Part shown: positions 19,378-27,403 of the stretch, one piece after another
How the letters are laid out: every line of letters begins with the position of its first letter
How positions within the stretch are numbered: position 1 is the stretch's first letter
Virus record (IMG/VR): IMGVR_UViG_3300031775_000001
Coordinates: 19,812 to 83,811 of that record
Direction: 5' to 3' (one strand)
Origin: a virus
Lineage: Duplodnaviria > Caudoviricetes
DNA length: 64,000 bases
Notes under the pieces: generated by a model
What the model was told of the DNA's origin: nothing
What the model saw: only the letters and a program-made list of their open reading frames with translations
Databases searched by the model: none
Position numbers and translations under genes: made by a program

Positions 19378-19596
19378 TTATTTTCTTGCACTTAAATTGC
19401 CACTCCACCAAGATGGCTTAACCATAACTTCTCCACCTCTGACCTTGACCAATCGTCTTGGTGCATCATTCAAAACATATTGTTTGTTATGTTCTTTGGC
19501 GGTTTTCGGCTGAAAGAAATATCTTTTTGAAGCATCTATTTCCTCATCGTTAGTTGAGGTCAACTTGTACTCGTAATATTTTATTGTATCACTCAT
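19378..19596 (-). CDS. hypothetical protein
   Basis: Co-oriented ORF downstream of a TTGACT-17-TATTGT promoter (19633-19661). Confidence 0.65.
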   Translation of the reverse strand: MSDTIKYYEYKLTSTNDEEIDASKRYFFQPKTAKEHNKQYVLNDAPRRLVKVRGGEVMVKPSWWSGNLSARK

Positions 19597-19679
19597 TGTT
19601 AATCAGTATCATATCTCATTGTTAATACTATTACAATACTTAAGGAACTCAAAGGAGTCAAGAAAATAATGAGAAACAA

Positions 19680-19877
19680 TTAAGAATTATCAATTTTTTC
19701 TTCCAATAAAGAGGAAATGAATTCTTCTGACTTTTGAAATACTTCCGGGTGATATTCCTTCACCCACTCTAGAACCCATTCGCGGACATAAGAGTTCACT
19801 ACTTCCTCTTTTGATAAGTCTAAACGGTATTTATTTAACTCTTGATTGTTTTCTATTTTCTTCTGATTCATTCCCAT
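19680..19877 (-). CDS. hypothetical protein
   Basis: Co-oriented ORF. Confidence 0.6.
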   Translation of the reverse strand: MGMNQKKIENNQELNKYRLDLSKEEVVNSYVREWVLEWVKEYHPEVFQKSEEFISSLLEEKIDNS

Positions 19878-20142
19878 AGTAAGGCATTAACCATCCCAAA
19901 TGAATATCTTCTGCGGAAACAGGCTTAATATTCTCCGCTCCTATTTTATTAACGAAATAAACAATTTCTTTTTGATTTAAATCTACCCTCTTGCCGTTAA
20001 CCCAAACAACATAAGCCCTTCTTCCATTTATATCAAAAGGAGGAGGAATGCTATTTATTTCAATCATTGCGTTTTCTGGAAAATTACTACCAGAAAAACA
20101 AGAAGAACAAAACAAGCAAAGTAGAAAATATGAAGATCTCAT
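19831..20142 (-). CDS. putative secreted/lipoprotein
   Basis: Hydrophobic Cys-containing N-terminus. Confidence 0.55.
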   Translation of the reverse strand: MRSSYFLLCLFCSSCFSGSNFPENAMIEINSIPPPFDINGRRAYVVWVNGKRVDLNQKEIVYFVNKIGAENIKPVSAEDIHLGWLMPYYGNESEENRKQSRVK

Positions 20143-20143
20143 T

Positions 20144-20470
20144 TTATTTCTTTTTCTTCAATTTCTCTTCTATAACTTCTATTAACTTTTCCATCTTCTT
20201 TTTAGGCAATCTTTTATACCCTAATAGGAAGTCAATTATTTTATCTACAGATTTTTCTCCAAAAACCAACTCATCATTAAACGCTTTTCCTTTTGACAAT
20301 ACCTCCCAGCAGTATCTAATCCTATCCCTCCAAGATAAAGGTCGATTAGAAAGCCCGGAACTCCAGTAGGAAAAATAATACAGGCGATCTTCTACATCAT
20401 AATCAATGCCCATCCCTTCTCCTTGGCATTCGCATTTAATAAATATTGACCTGTCTTTATTTTCATTCAT
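20144..20470 (-). CDS. hypothetical protein with CxC...E motif
   Basis: IFIKCECQGE...WRDRIRYCW; GGAGG SD upstream. Confidence 0.7.
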   Translation of the reverse strand: MNENKDRSIFIKCECQGEGMGIDYDVEDRLYYFSYWSSGLSNRPLSWRDRIRYCWEVLSKGKAFNDELVFGEKSVDKIIDFLLGYKRLPKKKMEKLIEVIEEKLKKKK

Positions 20471-20505
20471 TATTTTTGCCTCCCATAACTGTTCTTAGTA
20501 CATTC

Positions 20506-20533
20506 ATTATAAATAAATAAAAAACAAAGTCAA
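20506..20533 (-). promoter_or_regulatory. sigma70-type promoter just past the CRISPR trailer
   Basis: TTGACT-16-TATAAT. Confidence 0.65.
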
Positions 20534-20589
20534 GATTAATCGACAAGGGTTGTCTCGTTATCCTCTATATTTTGGAAATTGATCAAGTA

Positions 20590-20758
20590 GTTTCGTTCTC
20601 CCTCCTTATTTGAAGGAGTGGAAACCCATTACTGGCAATGGATTGCCTCTCAATTAGTTTCGCTCCCCTTCGTATTTGAAGGAGTGGAAACCAGAGGAGT
20701 ACTGCATCAGCATTTCCTATGCGTTTCGCTCCCCTTCGTATTTGAAGGAGTGGAAACC
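20590..20758 (-). CRISPR. CRISPR mini-array: 3 repeats, 2 spacers
   Basis: Minus-sense repeat GGTTTCCACTCCTTCAAATACGAAGGGGAGCGAAAC (36 nt), identical at 20723-20758 and 20657-20692, degenerate terminal copy at 20590-20626; 30-nt spacers; hairpin repeat ending GAAAC. Confidence 0.9.
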
Positions 20759-20864
20759 CGAAGCTCCTAACCCCTTAATATGAAAGGAGATGCCCCTCGA
20801 TAAAATCTAAGGGCTTTTAGTTCCCCACCGAACATGGAAGAACATCAAACTGTAAAAGAACAAA
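20759..20864 (-). ncRNA. putative omegaRNA/tracr-like scaffold (leader) between nuclease stop and array
   Basis: 106-nt structured segment with three predicted hairpins; position equals that of the TnpB omegaRNA. Confidence 0.5.
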
Positions 20865-22073
20865 TTAGCCAAATGCCCTCTGGCGTACAACCTCGGCGGC
20901 ATTAGGGTCTCGAAAAAGATGAGTGCCACATTCCGGGCAATCCCATTCCCTTTCGTCTAGAGTGAGGTTTCTATTAATGAAACCACAACAAGAACAAGTC
21001 ATAGAGGTATATTTAGGATCAACCATCTTACAGGTTTTTCCCTCAAGCTCTGATTTATATTGAATTTGTGAAATAATTTCTGCCAGCCCACCGCCGACAA
21101 GTTTTTTGTTTGTGGCTTTCTTCACTCGCCTTAATGTTTTCTTATCTTCCTCTGTCTTTTCTACTATTTTCTTAACTTCAAAATCTTCAACGGCGATGCC
21201 ATCATTTTCGGAAACTATCTGACGGCTAATGGCATGTCTTGCATGTTTTTTCTTATTTGCTTCATAATGTTTTAGCCTTGCAATCTTAGACTTTATTTTT
21301 CTAAAATTCTTTGACCCCTTTTTGCAAAGAGCCAATTTCTGATTAAGTCTAGCCTGACGAGCTTCAACATCTTTATAGGTCGGAATATGGAACGTATTGC
21401 CCTTATTGTCCGTAACATGATCCTTAATTCCAAAATCTAAACCGATTGTTTTTTTAATTTTAACCTTCTTCTGTATGGTTTGGGATTCTCCAACTATACA
21501 TACATACCATTTTCCGGCTTGATGTTTAATAGTTGCGATTTTGGGCTTTCTTCCATCAAGAGAACGATGCATAATAAGTTTGACCTTATGAGGCTTCACT
21601 CTGTTTGCAGGGTTAGATAAGAAAATATGGCTTTTCTTCAACTTGTCTTCATTTATTTCTAATTTATATGAATCAGTTTGAAAACTATTTGCCAACCTCA
21701 AAGGTTTAGGTTTCAGTCGAGAACCACCACCCTTGGTAAAGAAATTACCTCTGAGTTGATTAGCAATATGATTTAGATCTCTTGAGGGGCATTTTCTTAA
21801 AAGCTCAATACCCCAATTGTTTCCTTCTTCATCCAAATACCTATCCTCAAATCCTTCACCATAAGTTCTCCATCTCGTTATATTCCTATTATAAGCAGTA
21901 AAATTAGGCTTTTTTTCTTCCTCATTGTCCGCTTCAGCCAGAAAGATATACTCATTCTTAACTAATTGAGAAGCTCTGCAACAATCATATAGATATTCTT
22001 CCTGCTCCTTGTTTGGCTTAATTGCGAACTTGAAGGTTTTCAAATTCTTATTGTTTTTCTCTTTGGATTTCAT
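20865..22073 (-). CDS. tnpB: TnpB-like / compact type V (Cas12-like) RNA-guided nuclease, 402 aa
   Basis: FKFAIKPNKEQ N-terminus; RuvC-I IGLDFG, RuvC-II IAVEDF, Zn finger CSCCG...CPECG, RuvC-III RDPNAA; ATG 22073 preferred to TTG 22076. Confidence 0.92.
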   Translation of the reverse strand: MKSKEKNNKNLKTFKFAIKPNKEQEEYLYDCCRASQLVKNEYIFLAEADNEEEKKPNFTAYNRNITRWRTYGEGFEDRYLDEEGNNWGIELLRKCPSRDLNHIANQLRGNFFTKGGGSRLKPKPLRLANSFQTDSYKLEINEDKLKKSHIFLSNPANRVKPHKVKLIMHRSLDGRKPKIATIKHQAGKWYVCIVGESQTIQKKVKIKKTIGLDFGIKDHVTDNKGNTFHIPTYKDVEARQARLNQKLALCKKGSKNFRKIKSKIARLKHYEANKKKHARHAISRQIVSENDGIAVEDFEVKKIVEKTEEDKKTLRRVKKATNKKLVGGGLAEIISQIQYKSELEGKTCKMVDPKYTSMTCSCCGFINRNLTLDEREWDCPECGTHLFRDPNAAEVVRQRAFG

Positions 22074-22130
22074 CAAAGAACTCTAGTTTCGTTCTTAAGA
22101 CCACATGTCGTTGTTTCGTTCATTTGGTAT

Positions 22131-22180
22131 AGATGCCTATTTGAATTAAGCTTTGACTTCCCCTCCGAACAAGGAAGAAG
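22131..22180 (-). repeat. upstream copy of the two-hairpin module duplicated at 20788-20843
   Basis: 22-nt core with 2 mismatches (22158-22179 vs 20821-20842), compensatory changes, shared GGCATCT. Confidence 0.8.
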
Positions 22181-22209
22181 CAAGGGTAAACCTTGATTTT
22201 GAAAAAAAA

Positions 22210-22503
22210 TCATTCTTGAGGACTCCAATAAATCCCCTTAAATAAAACCAATTTAACATTGTCGCCATCGTCCACATCAATCCCTATAAGCTCACCCTCT
22301 GGAACGACAGATTTTGTGCTTTCATAAAAGAACTCCTTGGATTCAGAAGCATAGACTACTTGATCTGAGTGATATGGTAGCTTATCGAAGAAATCCGGAT
22401 TATCCTTTTCCCATTTCTTAAAGTTTTCATATTGACTCGCTTTAGAAGGAAAATAACTACCGGACTCTAATTTGCCCACAGTCTTTTTTTGTTGTTTGCT
22501 CAT
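22210..22503 (-). CDS. hypothetical protein
   Basis: Co-oriented ORF. Confidence 0.7.
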   Translation of the reverse strand: MSKQQKKTVGKLESGSYFPSKASQYENFKKWEKDNPDFFDKLPYHSDQVVYASESKEFFYESTKSVVPEGELIGIDVDDGDNVKLVLFKGIYWSPQE

Positions 22504-22508
22504 TTTAT

Positions 22509-22760
22509 TTAAAAATCTATGGATTCGGAAAAAGAAGTTCTAATGTCATTCACTAATTGAGACCGAGAATCACCCAAGGAACATTCGTCCCCTTCAATAT
22601 AAAAAGAACTACATATATCGCTTATAGGGTCACCCCTAGATTCCCACCAATCCGGATTTTCTTCCATTGTTGAGAGCAAGACTTCTTCTATAAAACTTGA
22701 TATTTCTTCTATCCTGCTAAAATTGATTTCTTTATTTGTATCACTATTGATTAACTTCAT
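22509..22760 (-). CDS. hypothetical protein
   Basis: Co-oriented ORF. Confidence 0.65.
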   Translation of the reverse strand: MKLINSDTNKEINFSRIEEISSFIEEVLLSTMEENPDWWESRGDPISDICSSFYIEGDECSLGDSRSQLVNDIRTSFSESIDF

Positions 22761-23178
22761 TTAAACCCTTTTCGTTTGAATTATCTTTAGATAAAATTTC
22801 CATCAACAAACTCACCGCTTCATCATCGCTCATTGTCGCAATAAAAGGATTGTCATTCCCCCATTGGCTAAGAGCCGCATGGTAACCATCTCCATAATCC
22901 TGCAAGGAACCATCATAAAGGAAAGCTATTCCAGCTTGTGTCCTTCCATCCTCGAAGCCTTTTTGGTAACTTTGTGACGACCTAACTTCTGTTTCATTAA
23001 TCACATCAGCCAACTGAGCTTCTAATATATTAGTTTCTGCATCGTAAGTTCTCAATAAAAATTGAAAATCCTTAATCCTGCTCTCTTGGTAGTTGTAAAA
23101 ATATACGCCACCAAAAAAGCACAATACAAGCAAATTAACCATCGTTAATGTCCAAATAATTCTCTCTTTATGATTCAT
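22744..23178 (-). CDS. membrane-anchored protein
   Basis: N-terminal TM helix; Y..G..DG repeats. Confidence 0.7.
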   Translation of the reverse strand: MNHKERIIWTLTMVNLLVLCFFGGVYFYNYQESRIKDFQFLLRTYDAETNILEAQLADVINETEVRSSQSYQKGFEDGRTQAGIAFLYDGSLQDYGDGYHAALSQWGNDNPFIATMSDDEAVSLLMEILSKDNSNEKGLNEVNQ

Positions 23179-23181
23179 AAG

Positions 23182-23712
23182 TTATGCTGATTTTGAAAAA
23201 TCTTCAGAAGATACATGTAGCGACTCCAAAGCTTCGACGGATGCGGTCATAGAGCCGTAATAACCACTGGAATCTAATTTTTCATAAATTTTCATAAGAA
23301 AATCCACGCATTCATCATAATCCATCTTTCTGCAGTTACTCAATATATTAACCCAAAATCCATATGTAATTCGTTTTCTTATTATTTTTCTGTTATCGCT
23401 TTTTACATCTTGCAAATTAAAAGATAGTTCTTTTTCGATTTGGTCAATACACCGGGAGTCAATCACGGTCTCTCCGTCCTTATTAATGCCAGAAGACAAA
23501 TATGTTCTCTTTAAAATATTAATTAATCTGCGACATAATGTTTTGGGCGTCCTATTAATTGAAAGCTCTGAGTCCTTTTTCTTGGGGAACGACCCGATTT
23601 TGAGTCTAACTCCGTGAGCTAAACAATTCCTGACTCCTTTTGTTTTCCTAAAAGAAAAATTGTTGCGAGATGCCCCGAAACCGGCTTTATATCTTGAAGT
23701 ATTATAGTTCAT
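23182..23712 (-). CDS. basic hypothetical protein
   Basis: Start trimmed to MNYNTS. Confidence 0.65.
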   Translation of the reverse strand: MNYNTSRYKAGFGASRNNFSFRKTKGVRNCLAHGVRLKIGSFPKKKDSELSINRTPKTLCRRLINILKRTYLSSGINKDGETVIDSRCIDQIEKELSFNLQDVKSDNRKIIRKRITYGFWVNILSNCRKMDYDECVDFLMKIYEKLDSSGYYGSMTASVEALESLHVSSEDFSKSA

Positions 23713-24062: not shown

Positions 24063-24239
24063 TCATTTTTGGTATCTTTCGAGGAAAGTGCATAATGAAC
24101 AATACATAGCCATCAAAAAAGAAAAAAAGAATAAAATACTATCATTTAGACCAAAAAATATTGAAACCGACAAATTTACAAACACCAATACGAAAAGGAG
24201 TTTCCCTTTGTTATTTAAACGATGCCAAGAAACAATCAT
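24063..24239 (-). CDS. 58-aa two-TM membrane protein
   Basis: Manual translation (MIVSWHRLNNKGKLLFVLVFVNLSVSIFFGL...); ATGA overlap with the sigma gene. Confidence 0.55.
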   Translation of the reverse strand: MIVSWHRLNNKGKLLFVLVFVNLSVSIFFGLNDSILFFFSFLMAMYCSLCTFLERYQK

Positions 24240-24970
24240 TCCGGAACGTAATGGTTTTTATTTAAATTTATTTCTTTCGGAAGTCGGGAAGTTTTTTTTA
24301 TTTGTTTTATTCTGCATTTGTCTGCCTTATTGAAAATCCCGGCCAAATATTTAGCCGACTCATTTGCTTCTGAAATATCATTTTTATTCTCATCCTCAAC
24401 TGTCATGCCTTTATAATGATGTCTTAATTTTTCAAAAATTCTAATTTTGCAGATATTAACTGCTTGTCTAGTTATTGAATGTTTGGTTGCTATTTCTTTT
24501 TCGCTCTTACCTTTTAACATCATTCCAAAGGTATCCTTTTCAATTTCCGTCAATATATGAGAATATTTTTTAATAATATCAACAATAACCTTCAGTTTTG
24601 CACCTTCATCAAAGAATGCAACATCTTCCTCTACTCCTATTTGATCGCATATCCAATCAAACAAAGAAACTTGCCCATCATCAGTTTCATATGTCCCGTC
24701 AGCAAGATTTTTAGAATAATGAAATTCTTTTATGCCCTGCCAGTTCGTTACATTCCTTGCATACGCATATGCCCATTTAGTGAAGTCTGCCTTAGAGAAA
24801 TCATAGCCTAATTTATCAAAAAACTTTTGTTTCGTTTTTATTAAATTAAAATTAACTTGACCTACCATATCATCAACGGTAGAACTCGCATTTTGGGAAA
24901 TATGCTTTCCTACTATTTTCCTAAGGTCTTCCTGATACTCTACTAAAAAATCATCAAATCTAGATTTCAT
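24236..24970 (-). CDS. phage RNA polymerase sigma factor (ECF/sigma70-like)
   Basis: Region 2 DDMVGQVNFNL...FTKWAYAYARN; region 4 LTEIEK...KSEKEIATKHSITRQAVNICK. Confidence 0.75.
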   Translation of the reverse strand: MKSRFDDFLVEYQEDLRKIVGKHISQNASSTVDDMVGQVNFNLIKTKQKFFDKLGYDFSKADFTKWAYAYARNVTNWQGIKEFHYSKNLADGTYETDDGQVSLFDWICDQIGVEEDVAFFDEGAKLKVIVDIIKKYSHILTEIEKDTFGMMLKGKSEKEIATKHSITRQAVNICKIRIFEKLRHHYKGMTVEDENKNDISEANESAKYLAGIFNKADKCRIKQIKKTSRLPKEINLNKNHYVPE

Positions 24971-26189
24971 TTTCTTTTATAAATTTAAATAACCTAACGT
25001 AATTGGAAATTGGCATATTAAGATACTTCGCCGCCTGTAGGGCGACTTTATTATTTTGATGATAGGCTTCCAATATTGAGCTTTTCATCTCTTTTGCATA
25101 TTTAATTCTATTTCTTTTCCTCGCAGACAACCTATTGGCGAGCCTAATCTCATCAACACTATCCAAAAAATCTCTTTTAAAATCAGGATAAGCCCTACCC
25201 ATTTGATTCATTGTTCTTCTTAGGGTGTTTACCGCCAATCCGAATTCTTTTGCAACAGATTTTAATAAGTGATTATTCCTTTTTAAGCTTTCCTCTAATT
25301 TAGGTTTTAGCTTCTCCAGCCTTAAAGAAAGCCTTATTTTGTTATTCTTTTTTCGAGTTTCTAGCATCTTCTTTCTAACTTCGGGGTCTTTTAGGTTGGA
25401 CGGAATTAAGTTCCCATTCTTTTTCCTTGTCTCCAAGGCTTTAATCTTCCCCATCTCTAATTTCTCCGGATCATAAACAGGGTCTCTAGCGGGAGGATTT
25501 GGGTATCTTTTTTTCCAATTAATTCCTTCAAAAAAAATCATCCTGTTCATCAAGGATCTATGACTAATGCGAAGTATATCTTTCGCGTGATTAACATTTC
25601 CTTTGGTTCCATCCATTACAAAGAGTATTGATTCTAATTCTTTTTCTGCGACCTCAGAATCATTATAGTTCGTCCTCCCTCTCTTGTCCGAATGGGATTT
25701 CCCGTATTTGCTTAAAGCGGAAAACCAATTTTTTGTTTTATTTTTGTTGTGTTCTCTTCCGGCTTCTATGAAAATCCTTATCTCTTCATCGCTTTTTTTA
25801 TAATTTTTGGGGGGAGACCAATTTCTTCGACCTACCTGACCTTCAAACCTCTTTTTTTCGATTTTAAAGAGCTTATCAAATTCATTGGGGAACGCCGTAC
25901 TTCTTACCGCATCCCAGAACGCAATTCTACTTGAGCCTACAGAATTTTTTCCATATTCTTTATGTAGGATGTATATATGAGACGCTTTCCTTTTTGAGAA
26001 ATTTTTATTTTCTGAAAGTTTTAAATCTAATATATTAAGAGCTAATTTAGCTGATTTAGCCTTAAGAAAAACTTTAAAATCTCTTTCGCTTTTATCTTTA
26101 TAACATTCAGTATAATGAAGCACCCAATATTGATTATGAGCAAATTTCTTCCTAAACGATCTAAACTGAATATTTTTTCCTTTTCTCAT
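24960..26189 (-). CDS. basic protein with three Fis-type HTH motifs, paralog of 26186..27403
   Basis: GNVNHAKDILRISHRSL; NHLLKSVAKEFGLAVNTL; ILEAYHQNNKVALQAAKYLNM. Confidence 0.65.
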   Translation of the reverse strand: MRKGKNIQFRSFRKKFAHNQYWVLHYTECYKDKSERDFKVFLKAKSAKLALNILDLKLSENKNFSKRKASHIYILHKEYGKNSVGSSRIAFWDAVRSTAFPNEFDKLFKIEKKRFEGQVGRRNWSPPKNYKKSDEEIRIFIEAGREHNKNKTKNWFSALSKYGKSHSDKRGRTNYNDSEVAEKELESILFVMDGTKGNVNHAKDILRISHRSLMNRMIFFEGINWKKRYPNPPARDPVYDPEKLEMGKIKALETRKKNGNLIPSNLKDPEVRKKMLETRKKNNKIRLSLRLEKLKPKLEESLKRNNHLLKSVAKEFGLAVNTLRRTMNQMGRAYPDFKRDFLDSVDEIRLANRLSARKRNRIKYAKEMKSSILEAYHQNNKVALQAAKYLNMPISNYVRLFKFIKENEI

Positions 26190-27403
26190 TGAAGCCCCTC
26201 CCTAATGTCTTTAACGAAATTGCGAAAAGTACCTGGGCTCATGCCTAAATACTTAGAAGCTTGGCGAGAATTTCCGTCAAATTGATGATAAGCCTCAAGG
26301 ATATTATGCTTGCAGGAATTCAATTGATGCTCCCTCCTCTTTTTTTTGGCAAAAGAATGATTTTCATTTCTTTTTTTATCCTTCACTTCGTCAAATTCTT
26401 TTTTAAAATTGGGGTAGAAAATCTTTAAGTCTCTGATTACATTAGAAACCCATGCGACACTCATGCCCAACTCCTCGCTTGTCCTGATTTGATGAAAATT
26501 ATTTTTTCTTAGAGCATCCAAAAAAGGAGTTTTTATCTTTTTTAAATTTTCCTCTTTCTTTTTTCTCCATGTCTTTGCTCTTGTTTTTTTAGCTTTATTC
26601 AATACCTCTTCTTTGTTCTTGAAATTAAAAAACTTATGCCCACGAGACTTAAGTGTTTTGACCGCCTCTATATGACCGATCCTTTGGGCTTCAGTATTCT
26701 TTTTTCTCTCTCTGGTTCCGGTTAAAGGATATTCTTTATTCCAATCAACTCCGTCAAACTTTTGCAAATAACGCCTGAAGGCAGATGAACCAATGCCTAA
26801 CTCGTCACCGCAAGCACTTTTATTCCCCTTGTTTTTTTTCATTAACCCTTTAAGGAATTTAGTTTCCATTCCTTTGAAGGTAAGATCCTTTAAAGAAACA
26901 TAAGAATTTTCTCCAAATCGTTTTTTTGCTTCTGGGCTTTTGGGCAAAACACAACCTCTCTTTTTGTCAGAAAACTTTTTTAATCTGGCAATTCTCTCAT
27001 TATTTAATTCTTTGGAAGGGCGCTGTTCCCCCCTTCCCATTGGATGCAAATAACTATATTTCTTATCTTTTTTAAGTTTGAATATTTTATTAAATTCATT
27101 TGGGAAGCTTATCTTCCTTATGTGATCCCAAGTCGAAATAGAGGAACTTAATTTAACCCCGGAAAATCGACTAAATCCCTTATGAAAAAAATAAAATAAT
27201 ATTGAGATTAACTTGATATTCTCATTCTCTTCTGAGATTCTTTTTAGCAGAATTTCTTTAGCCATCTCCCCGGACCTAGCCTTAATGACAGTTCGGTAAT
27301 TCCCTAATAATTTCCCACCGAGCATTTCCGAAAAATGCACAACCCAATATTGGTTGCTAGAAAATTTCTTAAATCTATATTTGTTTTGAATGTTGGATTT
27401 CAT
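26186..27403 (-). CDS. basic protein with three Fis-type HTH motifs, paralog of 24960..26189
   Basis: GNKSACGDELGIGSSAF; NFHQIRTSEELGMSVAW; ILEAYHQFDGNSRQASKYLGMS. Confidence 0.65.
   Translation of the reverse strand: MKSNIQNKYRFKKFSSNQYWVVHFSEMLGGKLLGNYRTVIKARSGEMAKEILLKRISEENENIKLISILFYFFHKGFSRFSGVKLSSSISTWDHIRKISFPNEFNKIFKLKKDKKYSYLHPMGRGEQRPSKELNNERIARLKKFSDKKRGCVLPKSPEAKKRFGENSYVSLKDLTFKGMETKFLKGLMKKNKGNKSACGDELGIGSSAFRRYLQKFDGVDWNKEYPLTGTRERKKNTEAQRIGHIEAVKTLKSRGHKFFNFKNKEEVLNKAKKTRAKTWRKKKEENLKKIKTPFLDALRKNNFHQIRTSEELGMSVAWVSNVIRDLKIFYPNFKKEFDEVKDKKRNENHSFAKKKRREHQLNSCKHNILEAYHQFDGNSRQASKYLGMSPGTFRNFVKDIREGLQ

What the first reader, a model, noticed from the sequence alone, without database searches (positions are those of the whole stretch)
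20788..22180. Duplicated two-hairpin module with compensatory base changes flanks the nuclease on both sides
Seen (minus sense): the downstream copy is G-TTCTTCC-A-TGTTCGG-T-GGGGAA-C (20820-20843) and the upstream copy is C-TTCTTCC-T-TGTTCGG-A-GGGGAA-G (22157-22180). All four differences are two compensatory pairs (G-C to C-G, A-T to T-A) in a 9-bp stem with one bulged T and a GTTCG loop. The G-T wobbles work only on the minus strand. Each copy is followed by a second hairpin (GCCCTT..GAGGGGC vs GCTTA..TAGGC) and the same GGCATCT. Inference: structure is under selection in both copies. Either these are IS200/IS605 left/right-end imperfect palindromes (non-autonomous element mobilised in trans), or the omegaRNA scaffold has duplicated into an upstream tracr-like RNA and a downstream array-linked RNA.
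Basis: partly seen in the sequence, partly recalled or inferred. Interest (0 to 1): 0.8.

Follow-up and report, generated by a model that had tools for sequence, protein, structure and literature searches.

The report
Duplicated guide-RNA scaffold around phage nuclease
The repeated two-hairpin sequence is the structured handle of the guide RNA of a very small RNA-guided nuclease carried by a marine phage: one copy sits before the gene as a compact single-guide unit and one after it at the head of a small CRISPR-like array, a layout shared by distant relatives.

Summary
Two 24-nt hairpins (22180-22157 and 20843-20820, minus strand) differ only by two compensatory pairs. Each is followed by a second hairpin and the motif GCATCT.

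They are not IS200/IS605 ends. They are two copies of the 5' scaffold (omegaRNA/tracrRNA-like) of the guide RNA of a 402-aa TnpB-fold nuclease with intact catalytic residues.

A covariance model finds 46 copies in 23 of the 30 sequences searched (24 of them related loci), all on the nuclease strand. There are 0-2 copies upstream and 1-3 downstream of the gene. In every unit I read, the copy heads a guide array, and this holds in relatives with only 35% protein identity.

Hairpin 1 is 99% paired, with compensatory changes at 5 of 9 pairs. Hairpin 2 covaries too.

Against an 88%-identical relative, silent sites are 60% identical, while the upstream unit is 92% and the downstream scaffold 97% identical. 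Both copies are therefore under selection.

The downstream copy runs through an anti-repeat and a UUCG loop into a 3-repeat array that varies between strains. The upstream copy is a self-contained short unit ending 12 nt before the nuclease start codon.

This is a new variant of the known TnpB-to-Cas12 intermediates (TranC, V-U). The several scaffold-plus-array cassettes per nuclease were not found described in the papers searched. First readers of this scan noted the same stretch independently.

The parts
22181..22195 (-). Small 5' hairpin of the upstream unit (5-bp stem, loop UUUAC). It takes the place of the conserved 5' segment of full-length scaffolds.
   Evidence: Fold; listed as a stem. 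In L001 an inserted A and a C-to-T change add one more pair (alignment).
22157..22180 (-). Hairpin 1, upstream copy
   Evidence: covariance-model hit 22212-22117, 46 bits
22135..22151 (-). Hairpin 2, upstream copy (short form), followed by ATCT at 22134-22131
   Evidence: In L001 a U.G pair becomes C:G.
22100..22128 (-). Closing hairpin of the upstream unit: an 8-nt stem around a 13-nt loop that contains a copy of the guide-adjacent motif
   Evidence: The same hairpin has entirely different stems but the same loop type in L002 copy 3 and L004. In L001 a mismatch becomes a wobble.
22086..22094 (-). Guide-adjacent motif GAACGAAAC of the upstream unit. The sequence after it (22085 onward) takes the place of a guide and runs into the nuclease start codon (22073-22071).
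   Evidence: The sequence after the motif differs between the window and L001, which has about 45 nt more.
20865..22073 (-). 402-aa TnpB-fold RNA-guided nuclease with an intact RuvC triad (D213, E296, D389) and two CxxC pairs
   Evidence: Pfam OrfB_IS605 and Cas12f1-like_TNB; invariant residues; model matches ISFba1 and ISDra2 TnpB at TM 0.66-0.73
20844..20861 (-). Conserved single-stranded 5' segment of the downstream scaffold, starting 3 nt after the stop codon
   Evidence: Invariant GTTCTTT and a T-run in all full-length copies
20820..20843 (-). Hairpin 1, downstream copy
   Evidence: covariance-model hit 20866-20774, 82 bits
20792..20814 (-). Hairpin 2, downstream copy, followed by ATCT at 20791-20788
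20759..20789 (-). Third hairpin / anti-repeat region, ending in a UUCG loop that joins it to repeat 1
   Evidence: This is the only region that gives the best scaffold-to-repeat duplex in all five types tested.
20590..20758 (-). CRISPR-like array: three 36-37-nt repeats (the last degenerate) and two 30-nt spacers
   Evidence: The 96%-identical strain L166 has six repeats and five other spacers between the same flanks.
20506..20533 (-). Sigma-70-like promoter for the genes after the locus. It is the only such promoter on this strand between 22800 and 20400.

Best explanation
The module is the conserved 5' part of the guide-RNA scaffold of the phage's own TnpB-like nuclease. Its order is: a single-stranded 5' segment, hairpin 1, a UAAAAG linker, hairpin 2, GCAUCU, then a third hairpin or anti-repeat. 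The locus holds two guide-RNA genes on the nuclease strand.

The downstream gene starts 3 nt after the stop codon, where a transposon TnpB keeps its omegaRNA. Its 3' end is an anti-repeat joined by a UUCG loop to the first of three repeats. For the first spacer it therefore reads like a natural single-guide RNA. For later spacers it most likely serves as a tracrRNA-like partner (inferred).

The upstream gene is a compact version: a small 5' hairpin, hairpin 1, a short hairpin 2, its own closing hairpin, and the guide-adjacent motif GAACGAAAC. It ends 12 nt before the nuclease start codon. It is either a fixed single-guide RNA, or a scaffold in the 5' UTR through which the nuclease binds its own message, or both (inferred).

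Shown here: the structure, the copy number, the strand, the link to arrays, selection on both copies, and an intact nuclease. Inferred: transcription, processing, which RNA-RNA contacts form in the complex, and the targets.
For: 1. Covariance model R1 finds 46 copies in 23 of 30 sources, all on the nuclease strand. Both-sided layouts occur in L007, L171, L172, L012, L170, L174 and L100, whose nucleases are about 35% identical.
2. Hairpin 1 is 99.3% paired, and 5 of 9 pairs have compensatory changes. The covariation score is 0.325, against 0.075 for shuffles and at most 0.094 for slid partners. The outer stem of hairpin 2 takes six different complementary forms.
3. In every unit read, the copy is followed by repeats or guide-adjacent motifs.
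4. Window versus L001: 4-fold sites are 60% identical, the upstream unit 92% and the downstream scaffold 97%. The changes preserve the structure.
5. The scaffold tail is complementary to its own repeat: an 11-nt exact complement in L172 (cognate repeat only) and 8 nt in L171. The best duplex lies at the same scaffold position in all five types.
6. The array varies between strains inside fixed flanks.
7. The nuclease has the TnpB fold and an intact catalytic triad.
8. The first scaffold begins 3-10 nt after the stop codon in every locus read.
9. The L100 upstream unit has a TTGACT-17-TGnGATAAT promoter ending 4 nt before the scaffold.
Against: No direct evidence of transcription or processing was obtained. 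RNA-library contigs overlap both units, but they may be DNA carry-over and show no ends.

No protospacer was found for any spacer, so the target and TAM are unknown.

The window's upstream unit lacks the invariant 5' segment of full scaffolds, and no promoter of its own was found.

For the window itself, the scaffold-to-repeat duplex is no better than for shuffled repeats (37 of 200 shuffles reach it). The third hairpin resembles the repeat hairpin, so complementarity partly follows from common origin.

The proposed pseudoknot between the U-run of the 5' segment and the AAA of the guide-adjacent motif rests on invariant bases and cannot be tested by covariation.
Confidence: 0.8

Rival explanations
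1. The two copies are the subterminal imperfect palindromes of the left and right ends of a non-autonomous IS200/IS605 element that a TnpA supplied in trans can mobilise.
For: The nuclease belongs to the TnpB superfamily. Two similar hairpins on one strand flank the gene. One strain variant (L005, L006) breaks off right after the stop codon, which shows rearrangement at that point.
Against: Copy number and position are not those of a pair of ends: L002 has three copies, all downstream and none upstream, and L007 and L100 have four. The units read are followed by guide arrays. No transposase domain was found in the 13 neighbouring ORFs scanned. There is a single nuclease copy in 64 kb, and the locus GC equals the phage GC. 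The locus stays next to the phage sigma-factor genes in relatives at 35% identity. The L005 break lies at the 5' start of the scaffold, not at its 3' end where a right end would be.
Confidence: 0.03
2. The upstream copy is mainly a cis-regulatory element. The nuclease binds the scaffold in the 5' UTR of its own message and hides the start codon 12 nt after the guide-adjacent motif, giving negative feedback rather than DNA targeting.
For: In the window the sequence in the guide position is the start of the nuclease ORF itself. No sigma-70 promoter lies between the unit and the gene, whereas by my reading of the sequence L171, L172, L012 and L007 show promoter-like TTGACA/TATAAT hexamers there (the consensus scan of L171 did not list one). 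The unit is conserved at 92% against 60% at silent sites.
Against: In L001 about 45 extra bases separate the motif from the start codon, so the overlap is not conserved. In relatives the upstream units carry real multi-spacer arrays. Nothing was tested at the RNA level. This reading does not exclude a guide function.
Confidence: 0.15
3. The upstream copy is a trans-acting tracrRNA that serves the downstream array.
For: It shares hairpins 1 and 2 and GCAUCU with the array-linked scaffold.
Against: By inspection of the sequence, its region after GCAUCU pairs with itself and is not complementary to the downstream repeat. It ends in its own guide-adjacent motif. The downstream array already has a scaffold fused to its first repeat.
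Confidence: 0.05
4. The upstream copy is a decaying relic of a former upstream scaffold-array cassette and has no present function.
For: It lacks the invariant 5' segment, its hairpin 2 is shortened, and it scores only 46 bits against 82 for the downstream copy. Relatives have full arrays at this position.
Against: It is 92% identical between phages whose silent sites are 60% identical. The few changes are structure-preserving: a new pair in the 5' hairpin, U.G to C:G in hairpin 2, and a mismatch to a wobble in the closing hairpin.
Confidence: 0.05

Closest known systems
omegaRNA (reRNA) of IS200/IS605 TnpB, e.g. ISDra2 (PDB 8H1J, 8EXA; PMC10097598)
   Same: The protein has the same fold and size (TM 0.66-0.73). 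The RNA begins at the 3' end of the gene on the same strand. It has several stem-loops, a last stem next to a short guide-adjacent strand, and then the guide. The ISDra2 RNA is described as a natural single guide with a tracr-like and a crRNA-like half joined by a tetraloop. This matches the UUCG junction here.
   Different: No transposase and no transposon ends are present. The 3' part is repeated as an array, and the whole scaffold occurs in two copies here (up to four in relatives). There is no sequence similarity to the ISDra2 RNA and no Rfam family match.
TranC, the transposon-CRISPR intermediates (LaTranC, PDB 9JFO; phage-borne CauTranC9 in bioRxiv 10.64898/2026.03.27.714800), and the V-U groups of Altae-Tran et al. 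2023 (PMC10691335)
   Same: A TnpB-sized nuclease is linked to a short CRISPR array without adaptation genes. The guide is thought to be an omegaRNA split into tracr and crRNA. Some members are carried by phages.
   Different: Sequence similarity to LaTranC is limited to the C-terminal 140 residues (E 7e-9). Clade membership could not be tested, because no sequences were available. The papers read here describe one tracrRNA per locus; scaffold-plus-array cassettes repeated on both sides of the gene, or very short repeats, were not found described in them.
Cas12f tracrRNA:crRNA (PDB 7C7L, 8J12)
   Same: A miniature effector uses a long multi-stem tracrRNA. Its anti-repeat pairs with the repeat, and its 5' region forms a pseudoknot with the guide-adjacent bases.
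   Different: Cas12f acts as a dimer with a larger REC/WED region, and the model here fits it less well (TM 0.55-0.59, rmsd 8-9 A). The Cas12f tracrRNA is a single separate gene.
IS200/IS605 left-end and right-end imperfect palindromes
   Same: Similar hairpins on one strand flank a tnpB-type gene.
   Different: See the membership test: copy number, position, link to arrays, absence of TnpA nearby and conserved synteny all argue against it.

Membership tests
TnpB/Cas12 superfamily of RNA-guided nucleases | RuvC-like domain with a D-E-D triad, plus a zinc-ribbon insertion | tested here: met
   Pfam OrfB_IS605 (9e-17) and Cas12f1-like_TNB (8e-19). D213, E296, D389 and four Cys are invariant in 11 homologues. 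The fold matches 8IAZ and 8H1J.
TnpB/Cas12 superfamily of RNA-guided nucleases | A structured guide RNA encoded next to the gene on the same strand | tested here: met
   The scaffold starts 3 nt after the stop codon. Covariation supports hairpins 1 and 2.
IS200/IS605 transposon (autonomous or not) | Exactly one left and one right end with subterminal hairpins bounding the element | tested here: not met
   There are 0-2 copies upstream and 1-3 downstream of the gene, all direct, and the units read are followed by guides.
IS200/IS605 transposon (autonomous or not) | Y1 (or serine) TnpA nearby, and multiple copies or empty sites | tested here: inconclusive
   No transposase domain was found in the 13 ORFs scanned within about 5 kb. 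There is one nuclease copy in 64 kb. Synteny is conserved in relatives. The rest of the window was not scanned for TnpA, and no whole genome is held.
Type V CRISPR-Cas (V-U / TranC grade) | An array of direct repeats with variable spacers next to the effector | tested here: met
   Three repeats and two spacers lie at 20758-20590. Strain L166 has six repeats and five different spacers.
Type V CRISPR-Cas (V-U / TranC grade) | Adaptation genes cas1, cas2 or cas4 | tested here: not met
   None was found in the neighbouring ORFs. These genes are also absent from most V-U groups, so this does not exclude membership.
TranC (as defined functionally) | The nuclease uses both a CRISPR RNA and a single omegaRNA-type guide | not testable with these tools
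   The locus encodes both kinds of unit (array-linked and single-guide), which fits, but use of them needs biochemistry.
tracrRNA | An anti-repeat complementary to the CRISPR repeat | tested here: inconclusive
   It is clear in the relatives: 11 nt exact and cognate-specific in L172, 8 nt in L171, and 1-4 of 200 shuffles reach the duplex energy in L007_D, L171 and L172. In the window there are 7 + 4 bp with wobbles, no better than shuffles (37 of 200).
Any Rfam family | A covariance-model match | tested here: not met
   No relevant hit at E up to 1 in 19500-23500.

The most novel reading that the evidence does not exclude
One TnpB-sized nuclease is served by several cis-encoded 'scaffold plus guide array' cassettes. 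The scaffold works in cis at the head of its own transcript. Only the 7-12-nt guide-adjacent strand would then need to be repeated for a new guide to dock, as in the very short-repeat arrays of L100, L007 and L002. That would be a multi-guide omegaRNA, a step between a transposon's single guide and a true CRISPR array, kept alive in a lineage of marine phages. In the window the 5'-UTR copy would also let the nuclease throttle its own translation.
Probability: 0.25. Interest if true: 0.8.

Novelty: new variant of a known kind. Interest (0 to 1): 0.6.

Why it matters
How transposon TnpB with one long omegaRNA became Cas12 with a tracrRNA and an array is currently explained by 'RNA splitting' and by serial duplication of the omegaRNA 3' end (PMC10691335, PMC10097598, and the TranC work cited in bioRxiv 10.64898/2026.03.27.714800).

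This phage lineage shows the proposed stages side by side in single loci, all built on one covarying scaffold:
- a single-guide unit;
- arrays whose repeat is little more than the guide-adjacent strand;
- 36-nt palindromic repeat arrays fused to an anti-repeat.

That makes the order of events, and the question of whether the scaffold acts in cis or in trans, directly testable with a 1.7-kb natural locus. It also gives a 402-aa nuclease with a defined, compact candidate guide (about 105 nt of scaffold). Finally, it shows that CRISPR finders will miss arrays with 7-12-nt repeats.

Tried and rejected
- Close DNA relatives in cultured phages: none. A single-protein scan of IMG/VR also found none. 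Relatives came only from the protein search and the alignment-based scans.
- Rfam: no family.
- Scans of viral contigs with 5'-segment patterns returned mostly chance matches. L014 and L015 are chance. L057 and L095 have a promoter followed by a look-alike start but no nuclease was seen, and I did not follow them up.
- Protospacers: candidate guides from all family loci found nothing in the held loci. The first 20 nt of both window spacers have no exact match in IMG/VR. No TAM could be derived.
- The idea that some fixed guides target tRNA genes: a 20-mer from L002 copy 3, which looks like a T-arm plus acceptor end, has only 3 exact matches in 185,579 species genomes. One lies inside a 14-tRNA cluster. 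There is no conserved host target, so I dropped the idea as an explanation.
- A pairing between the 5' segment and the repeat 3' end works for the window type but not for the second repeat type of L007. I did not use it.
- RNA libraries: contigs from four RNA or RNA-labelled runs overlap 20740-20925, 21262-21579 and 21765-22300. They are assembled contigs that show no ends and no strand level, and DNA may be present. They count as no more than a hint.
- L005 and L006 as an 'empty site': they lack only the part downstream of the first 10 nt after the stop codon, and the replacing sequence matches nothing held here. This is not an empty site.
- Supplementary sequences of the TranC-related preprint are not held, so identity with CauTranC9 could not be checked. 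Motif searches of the literature found nothing.
Full report
WHAT IS THERE

On the minus strand the region reads, from 5' to 3':
- a 97-aa ORF (22503-22210);
- an upstream RNA-like unit (22195-22086);
- a 402-aa ORF (22073-20865);
- a downstream RNA-like unit (20861-20759);
- three 36-37-nt repeats with two 30-nt spacers (20758-20590);
- a sigma-70-like promoter for the next genes (20533-20506).

They differ at four positions that form two compensatory pairs, and they fold as stated only on the minus strand. A degenerate pattern for the hairpin occurs twice in 64 kb against 0.06 expected. The second hairpin and the shared ATCT are also as described.

THE PROTEIN

The ORF matches Pfam OrfB_IS605 and Cas12f1-like_TNB. 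In an alignment with ten homologues the RuvC residues D213, E296 and D389 and two CxxC pairs are invariant. By sequence its nearest solved relatives are RdCas12n (9J09, E 1e-18), ISDra2 TnpB (4e-17) and, far weaker, LaTranC (7e-9). An AlphaFold model (pLDDT 79) matches ISFba1 TnpB and ISDra2 TnpB best, at TM 0.66-0.73. The Cas12f and LaTranC matches are worse. It is therefore a TnpB-grade, probably active, RNA-guided nuclease.

The neighbours are two Fis-type HTH proteins, a phage sigma factor and a replication initiation protein. No transposase or cas adaptation gene appears in the 13 flanking ORFs scanned. The window has one copy of the gene, and the locus has the same GC content as the phage.

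RELATIVES

Close relatives exist only in marine metagenomes. They are at 97%, 96%, 88%, 51% and 46% identity, plus a group at about 35% identity with 450-495 aa. The stretch itself occurs in marine or seawater metagenome runs of at least 11 studies.

THE MODULE IN RELATIVES

I aligned 17 copies and built a covariance model covering the 5' segment, hairpin 1, the linker and hairpin 2. It finds 46 copies in 23 of the 30 sequences searched, every one on the strand of the nuclease. Copy positions relative to the gene:

| Locus | Upstream | Downstream |
|---|---|---|
| Window, L166, L001 | 1 | 1 |
| L171, L172, L012, L174 | 1 | 1 |
| L170 | 2 | 1 |
| L007 | 2 | 2 |
| L100 | 1 | 3 |
| L169 | not stated | 2 |
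| L002 | 0 | 3 |

So 'one copy on each side' is not special to this phage, and it is not a fixed pair. It is one arrangement of a variable number of direct copies.

STRUCTURE IS CONSERVED BY COVARIATION

Over 32 distinct copies, hairpin 1 is paired in 99.3% of cells. Five of nine pairs show changes on both sides. The closing pair is A:U, C:G or G:C, and the top pair is U:A, A:U, C:G or G:C. The covariation score is 0.325, against 0.075 in shuffles and at most 0.094 when partners are slid.

Hairpin 2 always closes between the G-C of the linker and the G-C before ATCT. Its outer stem takes six different complementary forms, and its length ranges from 17 to about 50 nt. RNAalifold on ten copies returns hairpin 1, hairpin 2 and a third hairpin, with 8 compensatory pairs. 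The single-stranded parts are nearly invariant: GUUCUUU, a U-run, UAAAAG and GCAUCU.

EVERY COPY I READ HEADS A GUIDE ARRAY

In L171, L172 and L012 both the upstream and the downstream copy are followed by arrays of four to seven 36-nt repeats with different spacers.

In L100 (upstream unit), L007 (second unit) and L002 (third copy) the scaffold is followed by very short repeats. These are little more than the motif that ends every long repeat, at 31-39-nt spacing in L100. Five copies of a 7-mer in about 230 nt is far more than chance, which would give about 0.03 by my own estimate.

The first downstream scaffold always starts 3-10 nt after the stop codon, which is the place of the omegaRNA in transposon TnpB. 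The L100 upstream unit has a good promoter ending 4 nt before the scaffold.

THE TAIL OF THE SCAFFOLD IS AN ANTI-REPEAT

In all five scaffold types tested, the best RNA-RNA duplex with the cognate repeat uses the last 32 nt or so of the scaffold. L172 has an 11-nt exact complement to positions 9-19 of its own repeat and to no other repeat type. L171 has 8 nt at the same place. L171 and L172 have identical hairpins 1 and 2 but different repeats, and their scaffold tails differ in step with the repeats.

In the window the tail pairs with the 5' half of repeat 1 over 7 + 4 bp closed by a UUCG loop. That duplex is no stronger than with shuffled repeats (37 of 200). In addition, the third hairpin resembles the repeat hairpin in the same sense. 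For the window alone the anti-repeat is therefore plausible but not proven.

The published ISDra2 structure describes the omegaRNA as a natural single guide. A tracr-like and a crRNA-like half are joined by a tetraloop, and a pseudoknot forms between the bases just before the guide and a 5' region. The order of elements here fits that picture. The U-run of the 5' segment and the AAA of the guide-adjacent motif are candidates for the pseudoknot. Both are invariant, so covariation cannot test this.

THE UPSTREAM COPY IN THE WINDOW

It lacks the invariant 5' segment and has instead a small hairpin with a U-rich loop. After hairpin 2 and ATCT comes an 8-bp hairpin whose 13-nt loop contains one copy of the guide-adjacent motif. 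Five bases later comes the motif again (22094-22086).

What looked like 'repeat-spacer-repeat' is therefore better read as a closing hairpin plus the guide-adjacent strand. The same hairpin, with a wholly different 10-bp stem and the same loop type, follows the short third copy in L002 and occurs in L004. In L001 a mismatch in it becomes a wobble.

The sequence in the guide position runs into the nuclease start codon 12 nt later. In L001 about 45 further bases lie between them. No sigma-70-like promoter lies between 22800 and the gene. By my reading of the sequence, the relatives with full upstream arrays show promoter-like hexamers just before the gene, although the consensus scan of L171 did not list one.

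BOTH COPIES ARE UNDER SELECTION

Between the window and L001, 4-fold degenerate sites of the nuclease are 60% identical and third codon positions 70%. The upstream unit is 92% identical and the downstream scaffold 97%. The few changes in the upstream unit add or keep pairs.

In contrast, the array is the variable part. The 96%-identical strain L166 has the same upstream unit and the same flanks, but six rather heterogeneous repeats and five spacers, none shared with the window.

WHAT IT IS NOT

The transposon-end reading fails on several counts: copy number, position, the link to arrays, the lack of a nearby transposase, the single copy, the matching GC content, and conserved synteny next to the phage sigma-factor genes.

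The variant in L005 and L006 comes from two samples that differ by single bases, so it is a real allele. It diverges 10 nt after the stop codon, at the start and not the end of the scaffold, and it continues into sequence not held here. It shows rearrangement, not an empty site.

MECHANISM, WITH STATUS

Shown:
- a covarying multi-hairpin RNA-like element on the nuclease strand;
- its presence in several copies per locus, with an array after each copy read;
- selection on both copies in this phage;
- an intact TnpB-fold nuclease;
- strain-variable spacers.

Inferred:
- the elements are transcribed, the downstream one with or from the nuclease message;
- the nuclease binds the scaffold;
- the first spacer is used in cis, and later spacers after pairing of their repeat with the anti-repeat of a scaffold molecule;
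- the upstream unit acts as a fixed single guide and/or as a binding site on the nuclease's own 5' UTR;
- the system serves competition between phages or attack on host DNA.

Transcription evidence is weak. Contigs from RNA libraries of different studies overlap the downstream scaffold together with an L166-type first repeat, and also the upstream unit, but DNA carry-over cannot be excluded.

COMPARISON AND NOVELTY

The kind is known. TnpB-sized nucleases with arrays and a split omegaRNA include TranC, with one member from a tailed phage, and the V-U groups. By fold the protein is nearer to transposon TnpB than to LaTranC or Cas12f.

I did not find the RNA side of the locus described in the papers searched. 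It has the full scaffold repeated at the head of each array, up to four cassettes around one gene. L007 carries two different scaffold and repeat types. Some arrays have repeats shrunk to the guide-adjacent strand. I could not check whether this clade equals a numbered TranC clade. I therefore class it as a new variant of a known kind and score interest at 0.6.

Noticed in passing
L007:1715-4830: One nuclease gene is flanked by four scaffold-array units of two different types. The two types differ in the hairpin 1 stem and have unrelated 36-nt repeats, with one unit of each type on each side. Either one protein accepts both guide families, or a second nuclease lies elsewhere in that phage.
   Followed up: partly
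L100:2668-2960; L007:2135-2440; L002:2804-2960: These are arrays whose repeat is only about 7-12 nt (the guide-adjacent motif), at 31-39-nt spacing in L100, directly after a scaffold. Standard CRISPR finders would miss them.
   Followed up: partly
L005:2092-2266 and L006:2092-2131: In two independent samples a 97%-identical strain keeps the upstream unit and the gene but diverges 10 nt after the stop codon into unrelated sequence with an ORF on the other strand. No downstream scaffold or array is present at that place.
   Followed up: partly
L166:3440-3800 versus window 20758-20590: The array content turns over between 96%-identical strains (five spacers against two, none shared). The repeats within L166 differ from one another at many positions, which is unusual for Cas1-Cas2-made arrays.
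   Followed up: partly
L002:2905-2935; L100:5068-5092; L216:5940-6025: Some sequences in the guide position look like the T-arm plus acceptor end of a tRNA, with T-stems that differ in a compensatory way between loci. A 20-mer from L002 has three exact matches in the species-genome collection, one of them inside a 14-tRNA cluster that ARAGORN leaves partly unannotated. The window's own post-motif sequence begins with the same 7-8 letters.
   Followed up: partly
L002:752-830; L004:238-316; L168:205-290: In the 46-51% identity clade the nuclease gene is preceded not by the module but by another conserved non-coding element of about 75 nt. It has predicted hairpins and also contains ATAAAAGC. Only two distinct versions were available.
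   Followed up: partly
L057:1150-1300 and L095:2165-2320: Two viral contigs (221 kb and 16 kb) have a perfect TTGACA/TATAAT promoter followed 15 nt later by the same 5' segment and a hairpin plus AAAGC. No nuclease gene was seen in the part read. This may be a stand-alone scaffold or a chance look-alike.
   Followed up: no
window 22800-20865, minus strand: No sigma-70-like promoter precedes the nuclease in the window, although by my reading several relatives have promoter-like hexamers just before the gene. The window's gene may be read from the upstream operon or from a promoter of the phage's own sigma factor (24236-24970).
   Followed up: no
window 24236-27403: Two about 405-aa paralogues with a Fis-type HTH and a sigma-factor-like gene lie just upstream. 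The same trio, or a sigma factor plus an HTH/HNH protein, precedes the locus in L001, L007 and L012.
   Followed up: no
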